Assembly: GCA_043228905.1 (NCBI GenBank)
Contig: JBHGNT010000020.1
Span: 7,750,001 to 7,814,000, forward strand
Direction of reading: 5' to 3'
Source: Azolla caroliniana
Lineage: Eukaryota; Plantae; Polypodiophyta
Length of the DNA: 64,000 nt
This document shows positions 2,198 through 28,700 of the stretch, piece by piece. The notes beneath the pieces are model-generated. The model had not been told where the DNA came from. It did not search any database and worked only from the letters and a program-made list of their open reading frames with translations. Position 1 is the first letter of the stretch. Every line of letters begins with the position of its first letter. The translations under genes and the position numbers were made by a program.

Positions 2198-2904
2198 TGT
2201 TACCGATTAGGAACACGGTCTGCGGTCAGTCCTTCGACTTAGACCTCCAAGTGACTGTGGAACAACAAATGGTGGCGTCTATGCGTAATGCGTAGGGGAA
2301 TGTTCCCCCCTAACCTATCAACGTATAAGGGAGACGGCTACAACCGGCTCCTTATCAGTGGTTATACTCACGTTCTTACACGCTCAGGTATTCCAAACAC
2401 ACAGTAGATTAGCCATAGATATACACAGACTTTCAGAGAAGATAGAATTCTATTATGATACGCTTCTTTACATTCCCAAAATACACGCTGCCTCTATCAG
2501 AGGTTTTCTGCCCTTTATATACGCAGGGTCAATTTAGCCGTTCAGGGTGAAAGCATGAGAGTGGAAACAATTAGCTATGTCCTTGACATAGCTAATTAGC
2601 TATGCAAAAGCTACCATTGCTAAATAGTCATTTTAGTAAAAAGCCATCATTAATAAATTAACTATGCAAAAAACCACCATTGAAAATACTAGAGTGTTTT
2701 AATTACATATGTAAATTAGTGCCATAAATGTGCAACATAAACGTGCAACATAAATTGATATGTGCACCATAAATGTGTACCATAAATTATATATTGAATT
2801 CCTAGGTCCATTATGCATGATCCTTTGCCACATCATGTAGGCCATCTCTAGTTGAGTATTGTGGGTTAGTTGCTACCACTGTTGCTAAACCTTATTGAGT
2901 CCAC

Positions 2905-3420
2905 TTGCCGCCACTCTACACTTAGGGGCTGCTACTGTGCATTCCAAGCATCATCAAAGAGCTGTTCAATCTGACGGGGTTCTCTTCTCTGTGCCACTCT
3001 ACACTCAAGGGCCGCTACCGTGCGTTCCAAGCATCATCAAAGAGTTGTTCAATCTTACGGGGTTCTCTTCTCTGTGCCACTCTACTCTCAGGTGCCTTCT
3101 CTGTGTGTTCCAAGCATCGTCGGTAACTGTTCAATCTGACAGGGTTCTCTTCTCTGTGCCACTCTACACTCAGGTGCCTTCTCTGTGTGTTCCAAGCATC
3201 ATCGGTAACTATTCAATCTGACGGGGTTCTCTCCTCCATTGCCATCATTCTACACTCAGTTGCCGCTACTGTCCAGTCCTAGATTGCTTCCACATTTTGA
3301 TTTGACGGAGTTCACTCATCCAACGGCAACATTCTACACTCAGTTGTCGCCATTGGTAGGTCCTGGATCGCCTCCTCAACTGTTCGATCCAACGGAGTGA
3401 ACTCCTCTACTGTTCGGTCT
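2905..3420 (+). repeat. Tandem repeat, ~82-83 bp unit, about 6 diverging copies, upstream of the transposase
   Basis: ctgtgccactctac... recurs at 2989, 3072 and 3154, with degenerate copies on both sides. Confidence 0.85.
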
Positions 3421-3564
3421 TGGATCGCAATAACTTTCTGTCTATTGATTATCTTGTGTATTGTTGTGTCTAATCTTGTGTATTGTGGAATATTTTTGTG
3501 TATTGTTGTTGCCCATAGCCATCTTAAATACTTGTTTTTTTTTCTGGAAATTTAGGGTTTTAAT

Positions 3565-6500
3565 ATGTCCAGCCAAATGGAAGGGGAAGAAGGGTGTTTA
3601 GAATTACCCCTCAATGATCATAAGGATAGGGATGATGCTATCAGGACACAACAAGCCATACGAAACTATTGGGCAGAAAAAAAGAAGGAAACATCGTCAA
3701 TTGTTGAAGGATACGAAAGCCACACTCAGTAAAGGTAAGGATAGTTTAACTGAGAATGTAAGTAATGCGACTACCATCATAGAGAGAAAGGTTGTAGACT
3801 ATTTCAATGTTCAAACCAAGCACATCAGCAATGAAGAAAAGAAGGTAGTACTTTATGGAATATGTAATGATCCATCGATAAAGGACTTAGTTGATTGTGA
3901 TGGTCTTAATGCAAACATATCATCTATTTTAGTAAATAATCTTCGTAATAGTTTCATATCCATGAGCAGGTCAGAAGATGATCTTGTCTTAAAAAGGTCT
4001 AGTCTAATGATGTTACTTAATAGTGATGTTGACGATATAAACATCAATGAGCTATCTAAGGTAATTGGTGTTAGTAGAAAAACAGTGTACAATACAATGA
4101 ACCGTATAATTTCCTCGGGTGAAGGAACTAGTCTACTAAAGCTAACTACAAGATGTAAGCCAATGACACCCATAACATTTGAAATCAAGGATGTAATATA
4201 CATCACAATGTTTTGGACTAATGAGAGTAGGGTTTCACCCAATAAAAAGGATTTATGCAGGAAACATGTTGGAAGAAATCAATACGAGGAGCATCCCATT
4301 CATCTTCTTGATGTACCTCAGGTATTTACATTTATCTCAACATTTGTTTTGACTCTACATGGAAAGTTAATTAGCTCAGTTAGCAGAAAAGCTAATTAGC
4401 TTATCAATTACATTTACCTCAGTTAGCTACTAGGATAACTACTACATAGGTAACTGGCTACTCTCAATAGCTACTACCATGATAGCTAATTAGTTATTCT
4501 CAATAGCTAATTTAGTTACTACCAGATAATTAGCTACCAAAATAACTAACTAGCTACCATGATAGCTAACTAGCTACCAAGACAGCTAATTAGCTACTAG
4601 GATAGCTAATTTCGTTATTACCAGCTAATTAGCTACTAGGAAAGCTAATTACCTACCATGATAGCTAATTAGCTACTAGGACAGCTAATTAGCCACCATG
4701 ATAGCTAATTAGCTACTAGACCAGCTAATTAGCTACCATGATAGCTAATTAGTTACTAGGAAAGCTAATTAGCTACCATGACAGCTAATTAGCTACTAGG
4801 ACAGCTAATTAGCTACCATGATAGCTAATTAGCTACTAGGACAATTAATTAGCTACCATGATAGCTAATTAGCTACTAGAATAGCTAATAAGCTACTAGA
4901 ACAACTAATTAGCTACTAGAACAGCTAATTAGCTACTAGAATAGCTAATTAGCTACTAGGATAGTTAGCTAGCTACTAGGATAGTTAGCTAGTTACGAAA
5001 ATAACTAATTCCCCTTTATTATGCAGGTCGATTTATTTATTAGGTTCAAACGAATGCATCCAAATATCAAAGTTCAACTACGAACATTCGAGTCTCTTAA
5101 GCCACACTTTGTGAGACGCTTAAAGGATCGATACACATGTTGTTGCATTTACCATGTACAGATGGGTTTTCTGAAGGACTCTGTTAATCCACTACATCAC
5201 CATAGCGCATCCCTAACTAATACAGTTTGCACATGTGGGTGCCCAATCTGTCGATCAAGCCCGCAAGAGGAGTGTAAATCATCTGAGCACGTTATCTCTT
5301 CCATGAGTTATTTATTAGATTCAATATTGTGTCCGAGAGAAATTGACGCTATCTTCTATATTCATAAATGTGTCATGGGTTTATGTCAAGATTGTGGCCC
5401 TACTAGATTTAGGTGGTGTCCAAAGGAATTGAGTAGTGAAATATTGATCTCTGTGAAGTTATTTGAGTCAGTGAACACCAATTTCGAAGGAAAGGTGTGT
5501 AAAAGAAAGGATCTAGTTCGGAAGATGCTTAAACCAAGGGATTTGGTGTCTCTGTTTGTAGTATCTCTAGGAAAGTTCATTAAACACAACTTCATTTATT
5601 CATGGCAGGCCCATCAGTTTAAGACTTGCATATCTGATTTCCCAAATGATGTAGTAGTCTCAGTAGTAGATTTCGCAGAGAATTATACTTTCAAGTAGTA
5701 GAATGAAATTCAATCTATGCATTGGTGTTCAGTTCAGGTAACCATTTTTGTGCACATAACATATTTTCGAGTTTCAGATGATGTTAAAAAAAAAATTCAT
5801 TTCTTTATTTCTGATGATAAGAAGCATGATACCGTGTTCGTCCGACACTGTTTTAAGTTACATTGGCAGTGGTTATTAGCTCAACGTTTGGAGCTTACTC
5901 AACATTGGGTCTGGTCTGACGGAGTTGCGTCACAATTCAAGGCTCGACGTCCATTTTATTTTGTGGGGAGGTATCCTGCTATAACAGGTTTGGAGATGAG
6001 ATGGAATTTTTTTGGGTCTGGCCATGGTAAAGGTGAACATGATGGTGCAGGGGCTGTTATAAAGCGGGCAGTTACCCATGAACAACTAAAGACAGATGGT
6101 GTGCACATGAATTGTGCATCACATGTAGTTGAATTTTTAAGAACAAATATGTCAATGAGTGCAACGGGTGTTTATTCCTCGCAAGTCCGAGATATCAAAC
6201 GTGAATTTTGGGAAGTGAAGATAGATGAAGTAAATAGGGAGAAGACCTGGGAGTGCCAAGGAATTCCCGAATTGCGATCTCTGCATGCTGGTCGCGGTTA
6301 TTCAAGGTTGGATGGTCATTGTATTGCGGTTAGAGAATTGACTTGTTTTTGCTTCCATTGTGTGCAGGGAAATTGGAGATATTGTCTAAACAAAGCATAC
6401 ATTCAGAATTGGGAGTATCACACTCTGAATGATAAGGAAGCAGTTGATGGAGAAACAGGGCAGAATGTTGACTTCACATATGAGGGACTTGGAGATACTT

Positions 6501-6859
6501 TGAGTGATGTCCTGAACGTTGGGGATAACTTCGCTGTAAATGCTGAAGAAGGCAATTCAGAGGGTGCTGATTTCTATATATTGAAGTGCACAGTTAGTAA
6601 ATAGTGTGCGAGGCAGAATATTGTAGATGCATGGGGAAATTTTGTATCTGCCGGGACATTCTACATTGAAGGCCTTTTTTATGCAAAACTAGATGACTAC
6701 GAATATGTGTACAGGCTGTTAGAAGACAAACCAACGGCGTACATGTACTCTCATTTGGTCAGGTGCATCAACATCCCAATGTTAGAATACAATAGTTGCT
6801 CAGGTTTATACACTGTTGGTGCTAATGTGTATGAATGTATTTACAATAGTATGCCATAG
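3565..6859 (+). pseudogene. Sola2-type transposase, two exons (3565-4321, 5027-6859)
   Basis: GT..AG intron 4322-5026 joins LLDVPQ|VDLFIRFKRMHPNIK in phase 0; Cys clusters CCCIYH and CVMGLCQDCG; catalytic motifs VDFAENY, QSMHW, WSDGVASQFK, FFGSGHGKGEHDGAG; frameshift in the A-run near 3680; TAG stops at ~5696-5701 and 6602. Confidence 0.85.
4370..5000. repeat. Array of 20-bp units with AGCTAATTAGCT core (alternating -ACCATG / -ACTAGG variants) inside the transposase intron
   Basis: atagctaattagctaccatg and acagctaattagctactagg repeat in register from ~4560 to 4990. Confidence 0.95.
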
Positions 6860-7206
6860 AATTTGTAGCCACAAGTAGCAATTACCATGTTCTCTTGTAA
6901 AACAAACATGTATTTCGCGAAAACAGTTAAATAAATTCGTTTGAGAATCAATTTCTTGTATATAGTCTGCTTTCTGTGCTTCTTTCTCAATAAACATGTC
7001 TTTTTTGTTAAGTTTTAAGTTATAAGTTATAGCGAAATAGTCATCAGTAGCTAATTAGATGTACAAATGTAGCTAATTAGCTGTCAATAGCTAAATAGTC
7101 ATCTCAAATTACAATCTGCAACATATTCCTCAAATTACACAGTAGATAAGTACAGTGGGAACAAGTAATTAAATTCTTCATTGAATAATGTCATCTCTTT
7201 ACATAT

Positions 7207-8200
7207 TTATAAATTACCATTGGAAATGTCTACAAATCTCCTATAAAGAGCTAAGCTCTTGCTAGTCAGTGGAACAAGTCTACATATATTATTCGCATAT
7301 GGAGCTCGGTATGGAGTCCACAACCATGCACCTAGTTGGCAGCTCACTGTTTGCACCAAGTACTGTTCAGGCATTTCCTCGGGTAGAATGAGACAGCATC
7401 TCCGAATATTGAAGTAGTGCCAGAAATGTTCTGTATCCAAAATCAATGTGTTGTCGACATTATATTCAGGCCAGGTAGCCCAAAAATCAAAAAGTCTCTT
7501 GAATCTTGCAGCTTCCATTTGCTCACAATTTTCTCGTGCCCATTGACCTTTAAAACAACTTCGCCATTTTGGGAAGAATCTTGCTAAACACTTCCACACA
7601 TCTGATTTTGGTTTTTCACTCCAAATAAACAAATCAAAGTATTGCACAACCCACTCTAGAAACTGATTCGCGTCCCTCCTTGGCTGCATATATCTCACAC
7701 TCATCAAGACTTTATCAAGCTCCAAGATCAAGGCTCTTCTTTTGACTTCTAGTGGTTTACGTTTCCATTCCTGAAACTGAGCCACTGTTACACCATTTTC
7801 TGGTAGGACATGATCAATCTCAATAAGCTTAGATTCGGCCGACACAACTAGCATCCTTTTCCTCTTCAAACCCCTAGTAGACTGTGTTGGGCCTGGCTTC
7901 ACATTCTAGTGCTCTTGTTTTGTCGACTTAGTTATCAATCCTTGGATTACCTCGGTGCATGTAGTTACTAATCTACTCGATATCAGTCCACTGGTATCAC
8001 ATGTTGCATCTACCTACAACACCAAGTCATCCGTGCAACATGCTTGATCAACTTGTGTGACCAGATCACTTGTGTTAGTTGCTACATCTACTTTCAAGAT
8101 GGGGCCCTTTAAACACGCCGCAACATCAACAATATCCACGCTGGCATTGTCCTTACGAGCAATAGAATCAAACCCTTTAGACTCTCCAATATCAGAAAAC
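7207..8200 (-). pseudogene. FCP1/NIF (HAD-family CTD phosphatase-like) domain ORF carried by the Sola2 element
   Basis: RALILELDKVL...FLEWVVQYFDLFIWS...WARENC...FKRLFDFW...YNVDNTLILD follows the NIF/FCP1-homology motif order; ORFs 7207-7902 and 8014-8262 are in the same frame, separated by two TAG stops; 5' boundary uncertain. Confidence 0.7.
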
Positions 8201-8984
8201 ACCAACATATTCACACTCACAAAGTAACTAACAGTCTCACAAAACAACATCCTGAACATCAAAGAGTTTCAGTCATAGAACAACACTCTTCAAATTATCT
8301 TGGAAAAATATCATAGAGTTCCATTACATAATGTGGATCAAGCAACAACCAATCTGAGGTTTTACTTGTCCAACATGATAGTAAAACTTCATAAAACCCT
8401 AGCAAAATCCCTAAGCTAACAATCATATCCAACTAAACAGTATTTCGCTCCACTACGTCTGGGCCCCTTGACCGAGTAACTGGTCTTGTTCCCGATCGTG
8501 GCCCCTTCTTCAGCCTTTTTCTGGTCGGTTCCCCATTTAGCCTTGCTTCTTTCACCCAATGCGCAAGTGTGTCCTCCTCCAACAACCTTCCCATCGCCTT
8601 AGCAGCTAATTGCACATCAGTCGTTTCTTGAACTAGCTTTTCAAGTATAGAGGGATCTGTTTGGACATTTTCAGTAGTTGGGCTCGGTGGGGTGGAATCA
8701 AGGTCTTGAGATTCGAAGAAATGTTGCATCAAGTGTTCATAAACATTGTTGTTGTGAACCTCAGTTTTACATGTTGTTTCCACTATTTCATGGCATTTCA
8801 CATCATTGCCTAATTCAGTACACTGTTCCAAAAGAATAGGGTGGAGCTGATCTGAAGGAGATGTGATAGCAGGACTCTTACTTTCACCCACGTTGGCAGC
8901 AATATCCTCATCTGTTGCAGCGTCATTAGCACCAAACACATCATGTGCCGTCCTTAATCCACAAGATTCTACAATAGCATGGCA

Positions 8985-10310
8985 GCTATTTAGGATAGCT
9001 AATTAGCTACTTTACTAAAGTATGGTAGAAGCTAGGATAGCTAATTAGGATAGCTAATTAGCTACTTTACTCAACTATGGTAGTAGCTAGGATAGCTAAT
9101 TAGCTACTATGGTAGCTAATTAGCTACTTTACTCAACTATGGTAGTAGCTAGGATAGCTAATTAGCTACTTTACTAACTATGGTAGTAGCTAGGATAGCT
9201 AATTAGCTAATTTACTCAACTATGGTAGTAGCTAGGATAGCTAATTAGCTACTAGGATAGCTAATTAGCTACTTTACTCAACTATGGTAGTAGCTAGGAT
9301 AGCTAATTAGCTACTTTACTAACTATGGTAGTAGCTAGGATAGCTAATTAGCTACTTTACTAACTATGGTAGCTAATTAGCTACTTTACTCAACTATGGT
9401 AGTAGCTAGGATAGCAAATTACCTACTTTACTCGACTATGGTAGTAGCTAGGATAGCTAATTAGCTACTTTACTCAACTATGGTAGTAGCTAGGATAGCT
9501 AATTAGCTACTTTACTCAACTATGGTAGTAGCTAGGATAACTAATTAGCTATTAGGATAGCTAATTAGCTACTTTTCTCAACCATGGTAATAGCTAAGAT
9601 AGCTAATTAGCTACTTTACACAACTATGGCAATAGCTAATTACCTAGTAGGATAGCTAATTAGCTACAATGATAGCTAATTAGCTACTTTCTCAACTATG
9701 TAGTAGCTAGGATAGCTTATTAGCTACTAGGATAGCTAATTAGCTGCCAGTAGCTAATTAGCTACTAGGATAGCTTATTAGCTACTTTACACAACTATGG
9801 CAGTAGCTAATTAGCTACTAGGATAGCTTATTAGCTACTTTACACAACTATGGCAGTAGCTAAGTAGCTAGTAGGATAGCTAATTAACTAGTAGGATAGC
9901 TAATTAGCTAGTAGGATAGCTAATTAGCTAGTAGGATAGCTAATTAGCTTTTTTACACAACTATGGCACTAGCTAATTAGCTAGTACCATAGCTAATTAG
10001 CTAATTAGCTAATAGCTAATTAGCTACTTTATAGAACTATGGTACTAACTAATTAGCTAGTAGCTAACTAGCTGCCAGTAGCTAATTAGCTACTAGTAGG
10101 ATAGCTAATTAGCTAGTAGCTAACTAGCTGCCACTTAGCTAATTAACTACTGTAGTAAACTATGGCAGTAGCTAATTAGCTAATAGGATAGCTATTAGCT
10201 GCTTTAATCAACTATGGTAGTAGCTAATTAGCTACAATGATAGCAGCAAAATAGTTTCCATACTTTTTACAACTTAGCTAATTAGAAAAGACTAAGCTTA
10301 TTAGCTATAG
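8985..10310. repeat. Array of ~42-bp and 20-bp units with TAGCTAATTAGCTA core filling an intron of the accessory gene
   Basis: ggatagctaattagctactttactcaactatggtagtagcta repeated, with shorter variants. Confidence 0.95.
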
Positions 10311-10716
10311 TATGGTATACCTGTTAGTTTTCTCCACTCATTTGGTAGAGTTGTACTGCAATCTCCCAAACAGAATGCAACAATTCGACAGGCATGTTGA
10401 AAACAAAGCAGATGGTATGTGTGGTTGCATGGTTGTAGGTGAACCAACAAAGACACAATTTGGTCCTCCACACCTAACCCACAAGCGATGCAACGTGCTT
10501 GAACTGTCAATAAATCATTTTCTGGTTCTCCTTCATTTGGTAAGGGAGCAAGAATGTTCAGGTCCAAATCCTGTTTGGTCCTTACCATTCCCTCCACAAA
10601 ATGTAGCTGCTTCTTAAGGTAGCTAACTACCTGTTCTTGATAAATGTATTGTTCCTTCAACACAATAGAGAAATTTACCGATTAATTATTCCTGTCTGAC
10701 CCCTCTAATTCAAGCT

Positions 10717-13700
10717 TGTAGAAAGTAGCGTGCGGAAGCAAGTATGAAGACCGAATAGAAGACAGAAAACTCAGGTTTAATGGAGAGCTTGAGCTTACGT
10801 AGTATACTCAGGAGAGATAGAGAGAGAAAGAAGAACTATATTCAACAACAAAAGATCTCGATTCACTACTCTGTACATATGTGTGTTCCATGAACACTTT
10901 TATACAAGTCCTCGAAGGACTGACCGAAGTACTGACCGTACTTCAATGCTCATTAAGAGCTCCTACACTAACTCCCAAATATATTCCTCACGGAATATCT
11001 TTCCTAACGGCCTCCCGGTTTACGCACTCGGCCTAACCGATCGGTCCCAACTGATCCGGTCCTCGGCTTCTTCAGCCGATCCGGCCGATGTTGAGCTTGT
11101 CTCTTAACACTCCCCCTCAAGCTCAACTCGAGGCTCTTTGGAATCCTCGGGCTCACAGCTCCGGTTCCTCCTGGCTTCACGCCTCGCTCGCACTCCTCGA
11201 CCTGTTCGACTCCGCGCGCTTCGACCCTTCCGGTCGGCTTGTCTGCTCATGCGTCCCTTATTAGCTCTTCTGCTGTTGCGGTGTTGACGCTTCTCCTGTT
11301 GCCTATTCTTCCGCTTGGGCCTCGGTTGATTCAGCGTATCTGAATCAAACATCCGAATCGACTCGGCTACCTCTGATCGGTTTTTGCTCCCGTTCGAGTT
11401 TGCTGTCTCCAACTCCTCTTCGGTCTTCTCGCCCTTAGTGGCGTCATCTTCCCCTTGCGTGGTTGGCTTCGGCTCTCTCCTTCAGCTGCTCCCCTTCTGT
11501 CCGCTTTCAGACTTTTCCGCGGGTCCACCCTCGGCTTCTTCAGCCGATCCGAAGTCGAACTCAACAACCGAGTCAACAGCCGAGTCAACCGACTCGGTGT
11601 CGCGGTCTCCGCTCCTTTCCTCCTGCCTTGCTTGGTCGTTCGGGACTATTCTCCCCCTCAAGTTTGGCACGTCGAGGTGACGCAATCCGAGCGCACCTAA
11701 GAATTGCCGCAACTTGTCCAGACCAAGAGGCTTGGTGAAGATGTCGGCAATTTTCCGATCCGTCGGAACGTACTAAACTTCGACTTCACCGGAAAGGACA
11801 CGCTCACGGACGAAATGGTAGTGCACCTCAATGTGCTTAGTCCGTGTGTGGAAAACGGGGTTTTTCGCGAGCTGGATGCTGCTGAGGTTGTCGCAGTAGA
11901 TCGTCGTCGGATCTGACACCTCCTCTTGCAGGTCCTTAAGTAGCCGCTTCAACCATATGGCTTCGCATGTCGTGACAGCCGCTCCTCGGTACTCAGCTTC
12001 GGTGCTTGATAGTGCAACTGTCGGCTGCTTCTTACTGCTCCACCCGATCGCGGCACTCCCGAGGGAGAATGCGTATCCGGATGTGGATCGGTGATCGGCG
12101 GCGTTGCCAGCCCAATCAGCATCGGTGTAGCCGACTAATTGGACGGCTGCACTGGTCTGATATACCAGTCCCCGGTCCTTAGTGCCGTTGACATACCGAA
12201 GTATGCGTTGTGCACATTGAAGGTGCACCTCAGTAGGTCGCGGCATGAACTGACTGATCACTCCGGCCGCATAAATGAGGTCGGGTCGAGTGATGGTCAA
12301 GTATATGGGGCTTCTGACAATTTGTCGGAACCTCATCGGGTCGCATACCTTTCCCGTATCGGGACGAAGCTTGACGGTTCTGTCCAGGGGAGTCAAGACG
12401 GACTTACAGTCGGCCATCCCGAGTTTGAAGAGCATACTCAGCACGTAATGACTTTGGCTGATCAATATGCCTTCGGGGGTACGGATCACATCGATCCCAA
12501 GGAAGTAATAAAGGTCCCCCAGATCCTTCATGTCGAACGATGCCGCAAGCTGGAGCTTCATGCGGTCGATTTCACCTAGGTCGGCGCCGGTGATGACCAA
12601 GTCATCAACATATAGTAAAATACTAACCGGTCCGAGTCGACCTTTTCGGATGAACAGGGAAGAGTCCGATTTTGACGTGACGAAGCCCATCCGACGCAGT
12701 TGTTGCGTGATCTTCGCGTTCCAGGCACGCGGGGCTTGCTTTAGTCCGTAAAGGGACTTCTTCAGTCGGCATACTGCCGAGGAGTTCGTTCCGGAGTGAA
12801 AACCGGGGGGCTGTACCATGTACACCTGTTCCTCAAGGTCACCTCGTAGGAACACATTCTTTACATCCATCTGATGTAAGTGCCACCTCTCGGCCGCATC
12901 TACTGCGAGCAAAACACGGATGGTCGTCATTTTCGCGACCGGCGCAAACGTCTCATCGTAGTCCATGCCGTGTTTCTGCGCGTAGCCCTTTGCCACTAGC
13001 CGAGCCTTGTACTGGTTGACCGAGCCATCGGTGTTGTACTTGACCTTGTACACCCACCTACACCCGATCGGTTTAACCCCTTTTGGTGCGTCAACTAGGT
13101 CCCAGGTCTCGTTCTCCGCCAATGCATGCATCTCTTGCTCCATCACGGCATGCCAATTCGCGTCTTTAGCCGCTTCTACGTAGCTCTCCGGCTCACGCAC
13201 TTTCACTACACGGGTCATGTACGTATAATGATGCGCCATGTACTCGTTGTATCCGAACCTCAAAACAGGATTCTTCTGGCGAGTAGACCGGCATAATCTC
13301 ACATTAGTCGATGTCGAGGCCTTTTCGGTCGACGCGGTCTTCACCTTTAAAGACCCGTCACCGGTTCCCTCGGAGTCTGACTCGCGTTGGTCTGACTCGT
13401 TCTTATCCGTGCCGGAATCCGACACCTTCTTCTTCCCTTTCTGTTTGTGCGTAAGCCGTCTCCTTGGAATGCACGACCGAGTTTCCACTACTCGCCGGCT
13501 CTTCATTGGACTGGTTGTACCGACTCAGTCGTCCAATTGGTCCACTTAAACGGAGTGAAATCGGACTCTCTTCGCGGGTCTCGATTTTGGGCTCATCCGG
13601 AGGCATCTCGGCCTCGCTGACCTCATCGTCAAAGCTTGGATTGGAGTCGGGGTTCGGAGTCGGGGGCTGGTACCAGGACGCAGACTCGTCAAACACAACG

Positions 13701-16400
13701 TCGCGGCTAACACGCGCTTGTTTGGTGCGAGCGTTGTAGCACTTATAACCCTTCTGCTCGTCCGAGTAACCGACCAAGATGCACTTCTCGGCCTTTGCGT
13801 CCAGCTTCCTCCTTTTCTCCTTCGGTAGATGCACATACGCAATGCTACTGAACACCCTCAAGTGTCGCAAGTTCGGCTTTGTTCCGAAATATAGCTTGTG
13901 CGCCGACACTTTGTCTCCGATCCGGTTCTGGATATATACCGCGGTCCTTACTGCCTCGGCCTAGTAGAACTTGGGCAAGCTCTTCTCCTCCAGCATTGCC
14001 CGTGCCGCTTCCACAACTGACCGATTCTTCCTCTCGGCCACACCGTTCTACTCCAGCGTGTATCTACAACTGAATTTGCACCGAATTCCCATTTGTTGTA
14101 GATAACCGTTGAATTGACCCAAAAAGTACTCTTTCCCGCCATCCGACCGCAGGCACTTGATCTTTCGTCCCGTTTCCGTTTCCACGAACCCTTTGAGGTC
14201 ACGAAAACAGTCGAAGACTTCGCTCTTCCTCTCAATGAGGTAGATCCACGTGTGCCGCATGTGGTCGTCGATGAAGGAAACGAAATATCGGCTCCCGCCA
14301 AGACTAACGTTTTGTGCCGGCCCCCATACATCGGAGTGTATAAGGTCGACCTTGTTCCTGCTCCGGTTTCGCTCGTTGGGGAAAGGAAGTCGGTGGTTCT
14401 TCCTAAGCTGGCAGGCTTCACAAATTTGTGCCTTTCGGCCACTAAATTTGGGCAATCTGAACACTACCTGTTTCGATTGTAGATCTTGAAGCCGCTGGTA
14501 GTTGACGTGGCCTATCTGCTTGTGCCACAAGTCGATGTCCGACTCGGATGTTTGTCACTTCGTGAACATTGCGGTGCCGCCATCAGTGGAGTCGAGGATG
14601 AACATCCTCCCGTCTCTGCGCCCTTGCGCAATCACACGACCTTCTTCCTCAATGAAGCACCCGAGGTGTGTAAACCGAACCTCCATCCCTTGGTCGACGA
14701 TCTGTCCGACCGAGACCAAGTTCTTCGTGATTGTCAGAACATGCAACACGTTCATGAGTTTCCCTTTCTGCCCGACATGGCTAAGGGGAACTTCTCCGAC
14801 ATTCGCGATCGGATGCGGAGTGTCGTTTCCAGTTGAGACTACTCCCGGTTGTATCGGTTTTTCAAGGTACGAGAACCACTCCTTATGGCTCGTCATGTGG
14901 TTTGACGTGCCGGAGTCTACGTACCACACCTCGTCCGATCTCGGGGTGGTGCATTTCATTGAGTTTTCTTCGTGTCTCGTCACGAAGGTAGACCCTTCTC
15001 TGGCTCTCCCAGTGTCTTCGGCGTAGTGCGATCGCTGACCATTTCCCTTGTCGGTATGTCCGGAGCCGTTTCTGGAACCGGTTCTCTCCGAATCGGCGTG
15101 CTTCTTCCAGCACTCACTTTCCCTGTGGCCTTTCTTGCCACAGTACCAACACTCCGCGATGGCCTTCCCTTGCCGGTTCTCATCGCTTCGACTCCCCCTG
15201 TTTCCGGAGGGTCTGGAGTTGTTGTCGGCATCACTTCGGTGCCTTTTTCCTTGATCTCGTCGGCCGCTTCCATTGCGTACCAACTCGCCCCGTCCGCCAC
15301 GACCACGGGGCCTTTCTCCCTCCGTGTACAACATCTTGCTGTCGATGTGCGTGCTCGTCGACGCACCCGCGTGGTTCTCCTCTACTAGGAGCATCGACTG
15401 TAAGTCGAAAAAGGACGGCGTATTCTCTCGGGTACACACTGCCGTTCGGAACGCTCCAAACTTCGACGCCAAACCTCCGAGACAGATCTGGACCATCTCG
15501 CTCTCCTCGATGTTCACCTCTATGGAGCCGAGGGAGTCGCAGATATCCTTGATCTTCGAGGTATAGTCCGCCACCGACAGGTCGCATTGTCGTAGGTTGC
15601 TCAACTCCTGTCGGAGCTGAAGCTTCCTGGCTGTGGTGCTCGCGGCGAAAATCTTCTTCAGATTTTCCCACGCACCCTTCGGCGTCTTTGCATCCCGGAC
15701 ATAGCTCAATAGTTGTTCGCCTACACAAAACGCGAAGCGGTATAATACCCTGCTCGCCGATTGCTCCTACGACGGGAAGTCTCTGTGTGTCGATTCGGGT
15801 GCCGCGTCATTAGCTCCTTCGACATAACTGCAGTAGCCGTGCCTGAGCAGGTACTGGTGCATCTTGTAGGACCAAGACGCATAGTTCGTTCTGTCGAGCT
15901 TCTCTGTTGGAAGCGAGCTCGCCATGCCTCTATCCATCGTTCTTCTTGTTCTTCTTCGTCACTGTGTCGGCTGCAAAGAGGTTTTCAACCTTCGCGCTCT
16001 GATACCATGTAGAAAGTAGCGTGCGGAAGCAAGTATGAAGACCTAACAGAAGACAGAAAACTCAGGTTTAATGGAGAGCTTGAGCTTACGCAGTATACTC
16101 GGGAGAGACAGAGAGAGAAAGAAGAACTATATTCAACAACAAAAGATCTCGATTCACTACTCTATACATATGTGTGTTCCATGAACACTTTTATACAAGT
16201 CCTCGAAGGACTGACCGAAGTACTGACCGTACTTCAATGCTCATTGAGAGCTCCTACACTAACTCCCAAATATATTCCTCACGGAATATCTTTCCTAACG
16301 GCCTCCCGGTTTACGCACTCGGCCTAACCGATCAGTCCCAACCGATCCGGTCCTCGGCTTCTTCAACCGATCCGGCCGATGTTGAGCTTGTCTCTCAACA
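10717..16400 (-). mobile_element. Full-length Ty1/copia element B
   Basis: 393-bp LTRs 10717-11109 and 16008-16400 (11 differences counted by eye); TSD aagct (10712-10716, 16401-16405); PBS tggtatcagagc 16007-15996; PPT from 11110. Confidence 0.97.
11104..15937 (-). pseudogene. Copia B gag-pol (Gag, zinc knuckle, PR, INT, RT, RNase H, C-terminal extension)
   Basis: CWYCGKKGHRESEC, WYVDSG, HSDVWGP, RSDGGKEY, YVDDL, YTDADWAG, ADIFTK; several nonsense codons and a frameshift. Confidence 0.95.
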
Positions 16401-17234
16401 AAGCTCTTGTTGCGCAACCTATTCCAGATAATGCTTGATTAGCACATTTTACCCTTAAAGTTATTTATAACACAATCACATACCAACAAAACAATAGTTA
16501 CCTGATTCTTATTTCTAATCGTTCTAACAACGGAAGTAACTTTGCTCTCCATTGCAGAAGCCATTGTGGGTTTCTCTAAATCGGTCTTAAAAATTGCCAA
16601 TGTCTCACAGGCTTCATGGACATTTTTTAGCATATAGCTAACCAATGTCTCACCTATATCATTGACATTGGCTTTCCTTGGGTGTCGGTGTGGTGTATGC
16701 CCCCGGTTTTGCTGGGAGTCGGCAGTTGCATCAACAGCTGCCATGCTCCAAAATCTGTCTATTTTTTGTGCCAAGGTCCCCATCTTTCGACATCTTTTAC
16801 CGATGCCTCACCATAGACTGCCCAAGCTACCCTATACATTTCAGGGTCTCTGGATTCCTTCGTTGTTTTGCAGTACTCATATGCAAATGCTCTAGCAAAT
16901 GAAACTGATAACTCATTGTTGGCTGAGATCTCCTGATGAACTTTCTAGTGCAGCCTCATGCAGTCATCGTACAAGTCGGCTTGTACATGCTTCAGCTTGA
17001 CCTTGCCTTCTACTCTAGGCACTGTATATACTGTCATCCAGTCTACATCACTAATCAATTTATCACTTAGGACAGCAGGGTCAACACCCTCGAGTGACAA
17101 TCCATAGGTGTTGTGGAAGTCCTCCTTTGTCTCGCAAAATTTTGCGAAGTTTAGCACTTTCGGATACGGAGGAACGAGCCATCTTAAATATCATTTCAGA
17201 AATCAGAAATAGTGCAAAATCAGAATATGTCAGA

Positions 17235-17690
17235 ATTAGAAACCCCAATCAACAACAACAGAAATAGTGCAAAATCTTTAACTTAGCAAATCTGAAACCC
17301 TAATCATAATTTGTATTCAGAAATTTGAAATTAAAAAACCCTAATCAAAATCTGTAATCAGAAGTTTGAAATCAGAAACCCTAATCAAAATCTGTAATCA
17401 GAAGTTTGTAACCAGAAACCCTATTAAGAAATTCTAATAAAAAATTTATAATCAAAAACCCTATTTAGAAATTCTAATCAGAAATTCAAATCTGTAATCA
17501 AAATTTGTAACCAAAAACCCTATTCAGAAATTCTAATTAGAAATTTATAATCAAAAACCCTAATAAGAAATTTCAATCAGAAACCCTAATCAGAAATTTC
17601 AATCACAAACCCTAATCAGAAATTCTAATAAGAAATTTATAAACAAAAACCCTAATCGGAAATTTCAATCAGAAACCCCAATCATCACTA
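17235..17690. repeat. Degenerate AAACCCTAAT/AGAAATT repeat (telo-box-like) in an intron of the accessory gene
   Basis: About a dozen aaaccctaat-like motifs interleaved with cagaaatt. Confidence 0.8.
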
Positions 17691-18333
17691 AAGACAAGAT
17701 TAAACACAAAAAAGTAATATAAACACACCTGCTGCTACTCCCTGATCTGGGAGACATCCTTGTATGGGACTCCAAGGACTTCGCCCCATTCGATTTTGGG
17801 GAAATATGAATCGACACCAAAGTTTAGACAATAGTCAAAAAGAAAAAACAAATGTTTGGGGTTTCTATAACTGAAACATACCTGGACGATGATTGAGTAG
17901 GTTCTGTGTTGTAGCTCTCAATCTGCAATGTCGATTTTCTACTGCTGCGGGAGCTATGTCTGCGTTCGTGCTCTGAGTACTCCATCTGCATTCAAAATCA
18001 AACTTAGGCTAAACAGGAAATTGATGACATTGAAGTCGACCTTAGATGATGGTGTTATTCCCCAAGCTCCACTACGTCTGAAACAGAAGTTCAAATATTT
18101 GAGTTTTTTCATAAATTAGTTTTTCAAATATTTGATTTTCCCACAAAAAAGACTAGCTAAACAAATAGCTAATTAGCTATGGCCATTTTAGTAGCTAATT
18201 AGCTAAAATAGTGTTTCCACTCGCATGCTTTTACCCTTCACGCTTCCTACGTGAACCGTTACATGCATTATGATCTTATATTATTTCCTATTCCTACGCT
18301 CTTGTCCGTCGGTTACTATTCCGGCAGACAACA

Positions 18334-21300: not shown

Positions 21301-23998
21301 TCGGGGTTGTCGCACCACATACATCTTTACACCAATGGGGGACGTCGATCTTGAGGGCTGCCACTCTCTCTCCTAGCTTGCGCTATTTGGAGATCTCGCA
21401 CCATCTTTGTGAGCTCATCTATTGCCGACCCTCTCGACGGTGCTTCAACCACGTCTCTCTCAGGGATGAACCTTGCATTTGGTTGCTCTCTTTCTTGAGG
21501 TATTCTACCACCCCTGGGTTCGTGTGTCTCACTAATGGAGCCTAGGGATGTTTGGCAGCTCAACGGAGACCCGTCATTCCATTCCCTTCTCTTATCGAAG
21601 CAGTTACAAACCCATTTTACCATAGCCCAATCCGTTGTGAGCCCATCATCAGTTTCGAGGAGGGACCCCACCTTCTCTCGGTCTCGTGCATCAACAGTCT
21701 TTATGAATAGTAGGACTTTGCTTGTGTCAGGCACCATCCTATCGAGCGTCGAGAGTCGCGCAAAGCGCTTCTCAAATTCTTGTAAAAGTACCATAGTATT
21801 TCTCCTCTTGCCGGGAAGCTCCACCCACTCCATTAGATCCCTTTTCGAAATTCTGAGTGAGTCATCAAGGCCGTACTTCTCAAGGAGTCTTTCTTCGAAC
21901 TCCACCCAATTGCAACAGTCCACTTGGATCTCGAGTACCTCTGCGTGGATACTCGGCGTTACCACTCTAGCGAATCCGGTTAGCCGCCTATCTTCGGGGA
22001 CGTTTTGCATAAGCATTTCGGCCTTATAGGCATCCAAGTGGCTCGTGATATCTCTTCCATTGAACCGACCCGTTGTGTTGACCACCATCTCTATGGCCCG
22101 GTCTAGGCCGGTGATGCCTTCTCGGGCATTTACCAAGTGGTCCACCACCGTCGCCATCGCTTCAGCGAGTTCTCCTCCTCGCATCTTGGTTCTCCCTTGC
22201 CACCCTTTCACGTCAGGTTCACCAATTTATGTCCCGAAGTTTCGCGCACGTGTGTTACTTGGGCGGGACCACGGGGGTCTTGGACTAGGGAGTACTCAAG
22301 GGATAGAGAAGACCCGAGGTTTGCTTTATGACAATAGTACTTCCCGACCCCTTCCCGAGCAAGGTCTCGTTGCCCTTTGTTTTGTGAGGCCGGTGGCTCT
22401 CGTTGATCACGACTCATCGACCTTTCGAGATTACTGCACGAGCCAAGGGACCAAACGGGTACAAGCAAGATGAGCACGCAAGATGAACGCACAAGGGGAC
22501 TATAACACAAACATGAATGTCCATATGTCTTTATGAGGAGGAGAGGTGCATGGGCACGCCCGAACGCTCCCTCATCACAAGACGTCGAACGTACGAGGAA
22601 GACACAAAACACACGCACAAATGCTCGTACGCCTTTATGAGGAGGAGAGGTGCATGGGCACGCCCGAAACGCTCCCTCGTCACAAGACGGCCGAATGTAC
22701 AAGGAAGACACCAATACACACACAAAATGCTCTTACGCCTTTATGAGGAAGAGAGGTGCATGGGCAAGCCCAAACGGTCCCTCGTCACGAGACAACCGAA
22801 CGTACAAGAAAGACACAAACACACGCACAAATGCTCGTACGTTTTTATAAGGAGGAGAGGTGCATGAGCACGCCCGAAACGCTCCCTCGTCACAAGACGG
22901 CCAAATGTACAAGGAAGACACAAACACACACACAAAATGCTCGTACGCCTTTATGAGGAAGAGAGGTGCATGGGCAAGCCCGAACGGTCCCTCGTCACGA
23001 GACAACCGAACGTACAAGAAAGACACAAACACACGCACAAATGCTCGTATGTTTTTATAAGGAGGAGAGGTGCATGGGCACGCCCGAAACGCTCCCTCGT
23101 CACAAGACGACCGAACGTACAAGGAAGACATGAATAAAGAAAGAAGGAGAGAAAGAAACACGAATGATATCGACCAAAGAGATAAATACTTGTTCGATTC
23201 CAACGCAAAAGGACCCTTTATAAAATAGGGTTTTGTTTACAATGGCAACTTATAGTTAACCACAAGCTCAATCAAAACAAAAATATTAAATGCCCTTCGA
23301 GACAAAAGCAAATCCGAACACGGCGAAGATGAACAAACGAGCACCACCAAAATGCCAATCCCAACGAACCATGACCACCCGAACGGCGAGCACACGGGCT
23401 CACAACAACGAACCGGGCGGAGCAACATCGAACCAACGAAGTTTGGGCTCACGAGCACTTCGAGTGCCGACGCGAAGAAGACGAGCACGTGGTGATGGGG
23501 GGGATGAAGGGGTATGAGATGAAGAGAAGTGGTGAATAAGAAGATGAAGAGCTCCGAAGGAAAATTGGCGATAGTCTCCTCCTCCCAAAACGTCCTCCGA
23601 AATGAGCCCCCCTCGACCTCCTTTTATAGGAAAAAAAGAAGGGGGGTTGCCAATTTTGTCTTCAATGAGAAAGGAATAAAATTCCTTAAATCACGCTACA
23701 TTGTAAGACTAGATTTGAACCATGCACCTCTAGCTAATAGTCAATGTAACTATCCACTAACCCACTAGCTCATAATCCTATCTCTATAAATTCTTAGCCT
23801 GTCTCTCCTCTACATTTTATCTCTCTTCTCTCTTACTTTTTGCACGGGCTTCTATGCATCCTTTCCACCCTTTCTTTTCCCTTTTATTTTGCATATGCAT
23901 AACGAATCGCTTTTGTGGGCACATACATTGCACATGCACATTTTTTATCCCCCCCTTTCGCCGGTTTTTCCCACTCTCAAGCACGCCACATCACGACA
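18334..23998 (-). mobile_element. Ty3/gypsy with tRNA-Trp PBS: 5' LTR, gag, protease, RT, RNase H; interrupted after RNase H by the Tat-like element
   Basis: LTR 22230-23998 (tgtc..gaca); PBS TGGTGAACCTGACGTGA 22224-22208; gag 21327-22211, knuckle CMWCDNPDHLRREC, protease LIDHGSEIN, RT DLYSGYDQ/FLDD, RNase H ETDC..NAMADMLSR; frameshifts and a deletion near 19630. Confidence 0.88.
22515..23130. repeat. LTR-internal tandem repeat, 104/106-bp units forming a 210-bp dimer, ~6 units
   Basis: ttat(g/a)aggaggagaggtgcatg-like motif at 22531, 22635, 22741, ~22845, 22951 and ~23055. Confidence 0.9.
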
Positions 23999-25758: not shown

Positions 25759-28700
25759 TATTATAGATCATAGTACTAATGTAAGCTTAAGATAAGGATA
25801 ATAAAAAGATAGATAGAAAGGAGAAAGAGAAAAAAGGGTGCCGATCCACCCGACCACCCCCGAGCGAAGGGATCGAGACGGACTCGAGCCTCGATCGGCG
25901 TCCCATACCACCGCCGTGGCGTCGAGTCGTACCTGGTGCTGGCGCGCTCGCTACAAGAGTTGACCCACCACACGAGCAGAGTCTCGATGTAGTCAAAAGA
26001 TGATCAAATGAGGGTAGCTAGGCCTCTTATTTATAGCGAAACCCAAGGCCCCCAGGCAAGTTCACACTTGACCTAATGGGTTGTCTCAATCCCGAGGATT
26101 AAAAGTAATCCTCCCCTTCTTTACACTCTCCTTTAACCCTCACACTTATCCACGTGTATAGAATACTACGGTAAATTCTTACCACGGGATATTATATGGT
26201 CATGCCCGTAACATACTCCCCCTCTTTAAAACATTGCACTCTTGCAATGGAAAGTTAGGGAAGTTAGTTCTAAGTGTATTTTCGCGTTCCCATGTGGCAT
26301 CTTTTATTGATTTATCCATCCATTTTATTTTGAATTCTCGGATTTCTTTAGTACGTAATTTTTTTGTTTTAACATCGAGAATTCTTTCTGGTACATGTGG
26401 TTTAGAAGATAATTCTTCAGAAGTAACCAGAGTTTCAGTCGTAGCTGTATTGTCGCCAGAACCTAGAAGTTCTTTTAGACGACTCACATGAAAGACTGGA
26501 TGAATTCCGACACCATCGGGAAGAGCGAGACGATAGGCTGATGACCCAATGCGTTTGAGGACTGTAAAAGGTCCACAAAACCGTGGGGCTAACTTAGCGC
26601 ACTTACCCGTAGACAATGTCTTAGAATTGTGAGGTACACGTAAAAATACCTTCTGTCCAGGGTTGAATACACGAGGTTGCCTATGATGATCGGCATAAAA
26701 ACGCGCTCTATCTTGAGCTGTTTTTATATTATCTCGTGCAATATGCAACATATCTTGCATATCCCGAAGAAAGTTTTGCGTACTTCGCAACTCATCATGA
26801 TGTATAGTAACATCAATCGGGGCTCGTGGCTGAAAACCATACATCAACATAAAAGGACTATATCCCGTCGACGTATGCTTGGAGCTGTTATAAGCAAACT
26901 CCAAAATTGGGAGATAACGTTCCCATTTTGTTGGTTTTGCACCAACGTATGCTCGAAGCATGTCCTCAATAATTTGATTTACTCGTTCTGTCTGTCCATC
27001 GGATTGAGGATGATCCGTGGAGCTCATGCTCAACGTAGTTTCTAACTTCTTAAAGACCTGTGTCCAGAAGTCACTAGTAAACTTTGGATCTCGATCACTC
27101 ACGATATCCATCGGTAACCCATAAAAACGAAACAATTCGTCAACGAATTGGTAAGCCAATTCAGGAGCTGTTATCGTGGTTTTAGTAGCAATAAATCTGG
27201 CCATTTTAGTTAGTCGATCAACGACAACCCAGATGGCATCATGACCTTTTTGGGTGCGAGGAAGGCTAACAATAAAATCCATGGATATACTTTCCCACTT
27301 ATTATTGGGAATGTCCAAGGGATGTAAAAGTCCTGCGACTTTAAGTCGCTCGGCTTTGTTAACCTGACACTGGTGACATTTAGTCACATAGCTATGTATG
27401 TCAGGACGCATCTTAGGCCAATAAAATTGAGTGGAGATGAGAACGAGTGTACGATGTATTCCAGGGTGCCCTGCTGAGGGTGCATCATGGCATTCAAAAA
27501 GAATCCTCTTTTTGACCTCGGGTAAATCTGGAACACAAACCTTCCCATTACGGTAGAGCAAACCGTTAGCAATGTGGAAGTATTCCTTCGAGGATGTGGT
27601 GGTGTCTGTTCCAGACTCAACTCTTGCCCAGTATTTTGCGAAATAACTGTCATCAGGATACTTTCCTCGAAGGTGATCATAAAGATCTGATGATATTTCA
27701 GTGAAGCTAAGCGTGTTAACTTCACGGATGCGACTTAGTGCATCAGCGACAGTGTTCATGGAACCTTTACGATATCGTATGGAAAAATCAAAGTCCTGGA
27801 TGAGATCAGCCCATCGTGCCTTACGACCTTTCAGGTCTTGTTGGTCACAAAAATATTTCAAGGACTCGTGGTCCGTAGTTACCACAAAGTGATTTCCATA
27901 AAGATAATGGCGCCATGTTTTGAGCGCATGTATAACTGCAAATAATTCCTTTTCTTGAACGGTATACCGACATTGAGCAGAATCAAGTTTCTTACTCTCG
28001 AATGCTATCGGTTTACCATCTTGATACAAGACAGCACCTATAGCGTAATCGCTGGCATCGGTTTCAACCTCAAAAGGTTTTGAAGGATCGGGTAAAAGAA
28101 GTGAAGGAGCCTTGCAAACCAAGTCCTTGAGTTCCGTAAAGGCAAGGTCTAGTGTAGCATTCCACACAATAGGTTTTGTAGACTTACGCGTTTGACCTTT
28201 TAAAAGATCAGTAAACGGCGTCGTCAATTGGGAGTAATTACGAAGAGACTTTCGCAAAAACCCCACAAAACCAAGGAATGATCGAACTTCTCGAATATTC
28301 CGAAGAGTGGGCCAAAGCTTGATTTTCTCAATGCGAGAAGGATCAATTTCAACTCCTCGTTCGGTTATGAGATGTCCTAGATAAGTAATTGATTTCTTGA
28401 AGAACTCACATTTTGAGATCTTCGCATAAAACTGTTTGTCACGCAATGTTTGTAAAACAAAGCGGACATGTCTAGCATGTTCTTGTAATGTACGGCTATA
28501 AACTAAAATATCATCCAAGAAAATAACGACAAATTTTCCAAGTTGTTCTCGGAAAATGTCATTCATTTCTTGTTGAAAAGTAGCCGGAGCATTGGTCAAA
28601 CCAAAAGGCATAACCAAAAACTCGTAATGGCCATAGCGCGTACGAAATGCCGTTTTAGGAACATCGTCCTCACTTATTCGTATTTGATGGTAGCCAGTAC

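What the first reader, a model, noticed from the sequence alone, without database searches (positions are those of the whole stretch)
4322..10320. The same 14-bp palindrome expanded separately in two introns of oppositely oriented genes
Seen: intron 4322-5026 (+) holds 20-bp units with 40-bp alternation, and intron 8969-10320 (-) holds ~42-bp units. Both are built on TAGCTAATTAGCTA and stop just inside the splice sites; isolated copies occur at ~2589, ~7070 and ~18167/18192. Periods near 20 and 42 bp are about 2 and 4 helical turns, and the core has no CG or CHG site. Inference: phased, methylation-insensitive binding sites for a dimeric protein, removed from the mRNA by splicing.
Basis: partly seen in the sequence, partly recalled or inferred. 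Interest (0 to 1): 0.7.

Follow-up and report, generated by a model that had tools for sequence, protein, structure and literature searches.

The report
Transposon's self-addressed palindrome arrays
The two repeat-filled introns belong to one young, multi-copy plant DNA transposon, and their palindrome, which also sits at the element's ends and in an unrelated retrotransposon's terminal repeat, is likely a landing site for a protein made by the transposon that would help it escape silencing.

Summary
The arrays are real, but the two genes are not host genes. They are the transposase and second gene of one Sola2-type DNA transposon (window 2545-18236, 25-bp TIRs, 4-bp target duplication in 18 of 18 complete copies), split by a nested Copia. 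The conserved core is 12 bp (AGCTAATTAGCT). It occurs at both ends, between the genes and in both introns, whose length varies among copies. "Expanded separately" is only partly right: a sister subfamily carries intron-2 units inside intron 1 (9 of 12 parsed copies). Helical phasing and methylation insensitivity are not established. Inherited variants avoid the core more than post-insertion ones (odds ratio 0.54, P 0.005). Relatives fill the same intron with about six different family-specific motifs, which recur in their own non-coding DNA. A Copia family carries the same core in 20 of 20 LTRs. Best reading: VANDAL/VANC-like binding arrays for the accessory protein; binding is untested. The two array-intron junctions have no RNA test. 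The scan noted what looks like this family earlier on other DNA of this genome (e1-10618503).

The parts
2541..2544 (.). left target-site duplication TTCA
2545..18236 (.). whole Sola2-type DNA transposon (about 10.0 kb without the nested Copia); this copy is broken
   Evidence: catalytic motifs
2545..2569 (+). left 25-bp terminal inverted repeat, starts GGG
2569..2602 (.). left subterminal inverted repeat (..ATGTC-3 nt-GACAT..) overlapping one palindrome core (2589-2602)
   Evidence: the ATGTC-nnn-GACA part is kept in 5 of 5 left ends compared
2910..3272 (.). unrelated 83-bp tandem repeat upstream of the transposase
3565..4321 (+). transposase exon 1 (long helix plus weak HTH match); frameshifted in this copy
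4322..5026 (+). transposase intron, phase 0, with palindrome array (cores 4365-4984; 20-bp units, 40-bp alternation); splicing inferred
5027..6868 (+). transposase exon 2, DDD catalytic domain (D215, D298, D339 of the exon); premature stops in this copy
7048..7083 (.). two intergenic cores where the convergent genes end
7207..8290 (-). gene 2 last exon, NIF/FCP1-like phosphatase domain (approximate 5' edge)
8436..8968 (-). gene 2 low-complexity exon (donor not fixed)
8969..10320 (-). gene 2 intron with palindrome array (cores 8997-10306; 20, 42, 33, 18-bp units); splicing inferred
10321..10681 (-). gene 2 RING-like Cys/His exon (acceptor not fixed; Pfam match below cut-off)
10717..16400 (-). 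nested Ty1/Copia insertion with AAGCT duplication; it has no palindrome core
16502..17182 (-). gene 2 exon with the conserved N-terminal domain (no Pfam family) and coiled-coil; broken in this copy
17183..17728 (-). gene 2 upstream intron with a different repeat (10 x AAACCCTA); spliced in contigs of a relative
17729..17985 (-). gene 2 first two coding exons (intron 17785-17880 spliced in contigs of a relative)
18166..18205 (.). two right subterminal palindrome cores
18212..18236 (-). right terminal inverted repeat
18237..18240 (.). right target-site duplication TTCA

Best explanation
The arrays lie in the non-coding DNA of one Sola2-type transposon and are likely clusters of binding sites for the element's own second-gene protein, which would dock on them and keep cognate copies transcribed against host silencing, as VANC does for VANDAL. 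Shown: the element, the motif's positions, array turnover and exchange, family-specific motifs in relatives, moderate constraint on the core, and the same core in a Copia LTR. Inferred: introns are the only internal places where an array can grow without breaking either protein; slippage or unequal exchange changes unit number; exchange between the introns keeps one motif per family. Also inferred: the N-terminal domain of gene 2 reads the DNA, its RING-like and NIF-like parts act on chromatin or polymerase, and the Copia family borrows the same signal.
For: Anatomy matches VANC targets (introns, intergenic and terminal non-coding regions; PMC5735166 passages): cores at the left end, intron 1, intergenic region, intron 2 and right end in 18 of 19 elements mapped; the other lacks intron 2. 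Motifs learned from the intron alone recur downstream of the transposase in 6 of 8 families and in the first 120 bp in 4 of 5, and not in families with another motif. All eight lie in one 100/100 clade. Inherited unit variants fall in the core less often than singletons do (pooled odds ratio 0.54, P 0.005 over five unit classes). Symmetric core variants, expected if hairpin self-repair kept the palindrome, number 1 of 1259 and 0 of 1395. The left-end repeat ATGTC-nnn-GACA is kept in five left ends with four different array motifs, which suggests the array reader is not the end-recognition function. Gene 2 is kept open (15 of 19 to 18 of 19 copies per exon), and three upstream introns are spliced in contigs of a ~95% identical relative (one study, RNA status a guess). 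Its N-terminal domain folds confidently (pLDDT 92, pTM 0.88) and recurs with RING or NIF in relatives. 20 of 20 LTRs of a young Copia family carry the core as an 18-bp array; VANC6 motifs likewise occur in the unrelated AT9TSD1.
Against: No binding, methylation or expression effect was measured. Gene 2 shows no Pfam DNA-binding domain, while the transposase has a weak HTH. The constraint is about two-fold; the two single-intron Fisher tests were not significant (P 0.43, 0.48); singletons were also core-poor in two of five classes; and the test rests on heuristic unit parsing of related copies. An identical core in the two subfamilies is not significant (P about 0.18). The element also holds unrelated tandem repeats (83 bp, 13 bp), so it accumulates repeats generally. 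The motif is not a clear palindrome in L063 and is mostly half-sites in L062 and L067. None of 15 more distant families shows a shared short intron motif. The eight families were chosen as the closest clade with visible arrays, from 80 loci kept of 374.
Confidence: 0.42

Rival explanations
1. The arrays are self-amplifying filler: a short subterminal palindrome seeded minisatellites that grow by slippage where introns tolerate them and are homogenised by exchange, with no selected binding role.
For: Lengths vary 1156-1802 and 1031-2517 nt among copies 0.5% apart. Inter-array exchange is shown. Other unrelated repeats occur in the same element. The arrays fold into DNA hairpins. Note e1-9896733 reached this reading for a peat-moss element.
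Against: The core is depleted of inherited variants; symmetric variants are near absent; single copies of each family's motif sit at its terminus; a Copia family keeps the core in 20 of 20 LTRs.
Confidence: 0.22
2. The transposase itself (coiled-coil plus HTH in exon 1) binds the palindrome; terminal copies serve end assembly and the internal arrays serve self-activation or titrate the enzyme.
For: HTH_11 match E 6e-5, below cut-off; predicted long helix plus HTH, a layout suited to a dimer (inference); the HTH sequence differs among families; cores lie 45-71 bp from both ends. AtMu1 transposase activates cognate copies (bioRxiv 10.64898/2026.08.24.746577, section 7).
Against: A separate left-end repeat is conserved while array motifs change. 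AtMu1 and TnpA binding is reported at termini, not internal introns.
Confidence: 0.18
3. The motifs are host transcription-factor sites used as intronic enhancers; the TAATTA centre resembles a homeodomain site, and Sola and Copia both exploit it.
For: The array sits near the 5' end of a Copia LTR, where enhancers are expected (general knowledge). Relatives' motifs contain TTAATGG, GTAC or CACGTG cores, recalled as WOX, SBP and bZIP sites (from memory, no call).
Against: Motif turnover within one clade (about six motifs) would need repeated switches of host factor. Almost any short palindrome resembles some factor's site. The Copia array shares 19-bp strings with the Sola intron 2 and intergenic region, which points to transfer.
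Confidence: 0.18

Closest known systems
Sola2 DNA transposons (Repbase Sola superfamily)
   Same: DDD transposase with DFAENY, SDG, HGK..DG motifs matching the Sola2 alignment (PMC3627910 Additional file 10, part 1 of 2 read); 4-bp TSD and short TIRs (PMC10741241 passages); Sola2 elements are known to carry a second gene (Fanzor).
   Different: The second gene is an unnamed N-domain + RING-like + NIF protein; motif arrays in introns were not found described in my searches.
VANDAL (Mutator-like) elements with VANC anti-silencing proteins, Arabidopsis
   Same: Short family-specific motifs in tandem repeats in introns, intergenic and terminal regions; arrays expand, contract and change between families; motif shared with an unrelated element (PMC5735166, PMC10398659 passages).
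   Different: Different superfamily; no Pfam link between gene 2 and VANC; motifs here are mostly palindromic; anti-silencing untested.
Spm/CACTA TnpA and AtMu1 transposase as sequence-specific activators
   Same: Dense motif clusters bound by an element-encoded protein (bioRxiv 10.64898/2026.08.24.746577; abstract, section 3 part 1 and section 7 read).
   Different: Those act at termini; here most sites are intronic, and gene 2 shows no transposase-derived Pfam domain.
Sola1-1_Ec32 of Ectocarpus with ParB-methyltransferase accessory gene
   Same: A Sola element with an opposite-strand accessory gene proposed to bind and modify its own element (PMC12477816 passages).
   Different: Sola1; ParB and methyltransferase domains, which Pfam did not find in gene 2 here.

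Membership tests
Sola superfamily / Sola2 | 4-bp target-site duplication | tested here: met
   18 of 18 complete copies plus the window copy; 2 of 20 copies lacked one end in the fetched DNA
Sola superfamily / Sola2 | terminal inverted repeats | tested here: met
   25 bp, 1-3 mismatches; a 5'-GRG start for Sola2 is recalled from Bao et al. 2009, which was not held
Sola superfamily / Sola2 | DDD transposase with Sola2 motifs | tested here: met
   D215, D298, D339 invariant in 28 of 28 aligned sequences; motifs match the published Sola2 alignment by eye
Sola superfamily / Sola2 | phylogenetic placement among Repbase Sola1/2/3 references | not tested
   the tree held no reference sequences
VANDAL/VANC anti-silencing system | Mutator-like transposase | tested here: not met
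   transposase has Sola2 motifs and a 4-bp TSD
VANDAL/VANC anti-silencing system | [quoted passage not shown] | tested here: met
VANDAL/VANC anti-silencing system | accessory protein homologous to VANC | tested here: inconclusive
   Pfam scans of gene-2 exons and 87 relatives name no VANC-type family; no direct comparison with VANC sequences was made
VANDAL/VANC anti-silencing system | protein binds the motif and removes methylation in trans | not testable with these tools
   needs EMSA/ChIP and bisulfite data
Spm/CACTA TnpA system | CACTA termini and 3-bp TSD (recalled) | tested here: not met
   GGG termini, 4-bp TSD
FCP1/NIF phosphatases (gene 2 C-terminus) | NIF domain | tested here: met
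   PF03031, 32 bits over a 21.8 cut-off; also in L065 and L066
FCP1/NIF phosphatases (gene 2 C-terminus) | catalytic DxDx(T/V) motif (recalled) | tested here: not met
   reads LELDKVL here, LDLNGLL in L065 and VDLNGVL in L066: probably a pseudophosphatase

The most novel reading that the evidence does not exclude
A clade of Sola2 transposons of seed-free plants evolved its own sequence-specific anti-silencing system, independent of VANC and TnpA. An accessory protein with an unnamed N-terminal DNA-binding domain reads a family-specific palindrome amplified in the element's introns; gene conversion between the introns keeps the address uniform; and a Copia retrotransposon has captured the address into its LTR to be switched on by the DNA transposon's protein.
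Probability: 0.28. Interest if true: 0.8.

Novelty: new variant of a known kind. Interest (0 to 1): 0.56.

Why it matters
Sequence-specific anti-silencing by transposons is established for Arabidopsis VANDAL and Spm elements. A matching layout in an unrelated superfamily, in seed-free plants, would show that the strategy arose again with another protein. The set of families with about six different motifs gives ready protein-motif pairs for binding tests, and the Copia LTR gives a direct test of hitch-hiking between transposon classes. If the arrays are filler, the locus is still a clear case of repeat exchange between two introns of one element.

Tried and rejected
RNA: no RNA holder on record was listed. 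Homodimer prediction for the gene-2 exon product gave no verdict. Fold searches of the gene-2 N-domain model found no clear match: best Z 2.6 among 48,161 chains, and no Foldseek hit at E<=0.001 in PDB or BFVD; this does not show the fold is new. PDB sequence searches gave only coiled-coil hits for the N-domain profile and none for the transposase. Atlas leads were weak and unrelated. The transposase exon-1 model gave only Z<=6.2, mostly coiled-coil, with HTH repressors at 5.3-5.5. Searching the own genome with distant transposases returned only matches that look like this family. Core identity between subfamilies was rejected as evidence. Long-range helical phasing was rejected as a general rule. 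Host genes: no obvious one among ORFs of 110 aa or more in three scanned stretches, so the lineage was left open; my first guess of a moss was dropped. Bao et al. 2009 was not held. Supplements of the two bioRxiv preprints were not seen and may list relevant motifs. In one search the printed intron-1 lengths were inflated by a misplaced anchor and were corrected.
Full report
1. Observation. The 14-mer occurs 37 times in the window against 0 in 100 shuffles: 5 in the first interval, 29 in the second, one at 2589 and two at 18166/18192; the ~7070 copy has one mismatch. Both intervals are GT..AG and join open frames when removed. The conserved unit is the 12-mer AGCTAATTAGCT. Intron 1 is a 20-bp array with 40-bp alternation; intron 2 mixes 20, 42, 33 and 18-bp spacings.

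2. What it is. Everything lies in one element, 2545-18236, with 25-bp TIRs starting GGG and a TTCA duplication, interrupted by a Copia at 10717-16400. A search with exon 2 gave 583 candidates, 40 scored, all about 98% identical (not a copy number). Of 20 copies fetched, 18 had both ends, all 18 with a 4-bp duplication, 9.0-12.6 kb long; their exon 2 differs by a median 0.5%. The + gene is a transposase with three invariant aspartates (28 of 28 sequences) in motifs matching the published Sola2 alignment (PMC3627910 supplement). The - gene has an N-terminal domain without Pfam family, a RING-like exon and a NIF-like end that lacks the recalled catalytic motif. Two relatives carry the N-domain and NIF in one protein, and RING matches are weak but frequent. 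Contigs of up to three runs of one study, RNA by guess and about 95% identical, splice three upstream introns of gene 2. The host is a seed-free land plant by inference from named homologues and earlier notes; moss versus fern was not determined.

3. Array behaviour. Intron 1 measures 1156-1802 nt in 20 of 20 copies and intron 2 1031-2517 nt in 18 of 20, with near-constant margins at the splice sites. Cores also sit 45 bp from the left end, between the genes and twice at the right end. A double-core pattern matches 9340 times in the genome, the reversed control 0 times. A sister subfamily (87-88% transposase identity) keeps the core with other spacers. In 9 of 12 parsed copies (20 fetched), and in 1 of 2 seen earlier, the middle of intron 1 consists of intron-2-type 19/33-bp units in the same genomic orientation. 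The arrays therefore exchange units, and the converted form went on transposing (inference).

4. Is the core protected? Among unit types shared by three or more copies, changes per site were lower in core than spacer in all five unit classes (significant in four). Singletons showed a weaker bias (significant in two) and the reverse in one. Pooled odds ratio 0.54, P 0.005. The first, single-intron contrasts were not significant, the parsing is heuristic and copies are related, so this is moderate support. Symmetric variants are nearly absent, which argues against hairpin repair as the cause. Identity of the core between subfamilies is uninformative.

5. Relatives. A metagenome scan kept 80 of 374 loci. 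A tree of 37 chosen rows puts this family in a 100/100 clade of 11. The intron sits at the same Q|V position in 5 of 5 clade relatives with both edges. Motifs differ by family: ACCATTAA, GGTAATTAG, TGCTA..TAGCA, AGGTGAAA and AGTACCAA. Learned from the intron alone, they recur downstream of the transposase in 6 of 8 families (at most 2 of 300 shuffles) and in the first 120 bp in 4 of 5; exons show 1-5 hits. Two pairs among the eight share a motif, so about six are independent. None of 15 more distant families shows this. A left-end repeat is conserved across four motif types.

6. A second carrier. A Copia family has the core as an 18-bp array near the 5' end of its LTR in 20 of 20 LTRs fetched. 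One element's LTRs match at 510 of 511 aligned bases, and the array shares 19-bp strings with Sola intron 2 and the intergenic region. The window's own Copia, 67-72% identical in internal stretches, has no core. The direction of transfer is unknown.

7. Mechanism. The layout matches where VANC21 binds VANDAL21: introns, intergenic and terminal non-coding DNA with family-specific tandem motifs, and VANC6 motifs in an unrelated element (PMC5735166 and PMC10398659, passages). Rivals are neutral filler (0.22), the transposase as reader (0.18; weak HTH; precedent in bioRxiv 10.64898/2026.08.24.746577) and host factor sites (0.18). Every step from motif to protein to chromatin is inferred. Phasing is weak: 0% of Copia spacings and 52-87% of Sola spacings fall near whole turns. 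The lack of CG/CHG is real (2 and 1 CG in the introns), but its meaning depends on whether the host methylates CHH.

8. Novelty. It is a Sola2 member by TSD, TIR and catalytic motifs. It is not a VANDAL or CACTA, but may work like them. Six paper searches found no description of such arrays or of this accessory gene; PMC7466625 (passages) does not mention Sola. The library lacks most subscription papers and Repbase. The scan noted what appears to be the same family elsewhere in this genome with a similar reading (e1-10618503), palindrome arrays in Sola elements with a ParB-methylase gene (e.g. e1-10617656), and a filler reading for a peat-moss element (e1-9896733); these are unchecked notes. 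Also seen as passages, with little use: PMC4455052, PMC5751038, PMC10294476. Verdict: new variant of a known kind, interest 0.56.

Noticed in passing
L141:8624-L142:4201 (G000:C1:10404624-10410201) and L153-L172: Ty1/Copia family with the same palindrome as an 18-bp array in its LTRs; several copies appear to cluster within about 120 kb on G000:C2 (15.19-15.32 Mb).
   Followed up: partly
window 17183-17728: Gene 2 upstream intron holds a 13/40/92-bp repeat with 10 AAACCCTA (telobox-like, label recalled) copies; a second possible binding array.
   Followed up: partly
window 2910-3272: 83-bp tandem repeat upstream of the transposase, unrelated to the palindrome.
   Followed up: no
P0169, P0266: The gene-2 N-terminal domain also occurs in proteins with a Ty3/gypsy Gag domain, so it may be shared across transposon classes.
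   Followed up: no
L087, L088 (about +1200 to +1900 from exon 2 start): A neighbouring clade has its palindrome array (TTAGTACTAA) in what looks like a different intron, inside the catalytic region.
   Followed up: no
L127, L132, L138; L118-L120; L135-L136: Distant relatives have CG-containing palindrome clusters (GCCACGTGGC, CGCATATGCG, TTCGGCCGAA) upstream of exon 2.
   Followed up: no
L178: A sister-subfamily exon 2 is followed by a main-subfamily-type intron-2 array: possible recombinant or nested copy.
   Followed up: no
L029-L030: 9.0-kb copy with an intact transposase frame and a deletion of most of gene 2, flanked by a perfect 4-bp duplication.
   Followed up: no
window 26203-30639 (-): 1479-codon open frame of a Gag-Pol-like element; a 93-bp segment is identical at 26071, 31322 and 32608.
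   Followed up: no
window 22529-23130 and 59637-59841: 105-bp and 40-bp tandem arrays in other repeats.
   Followed up: no
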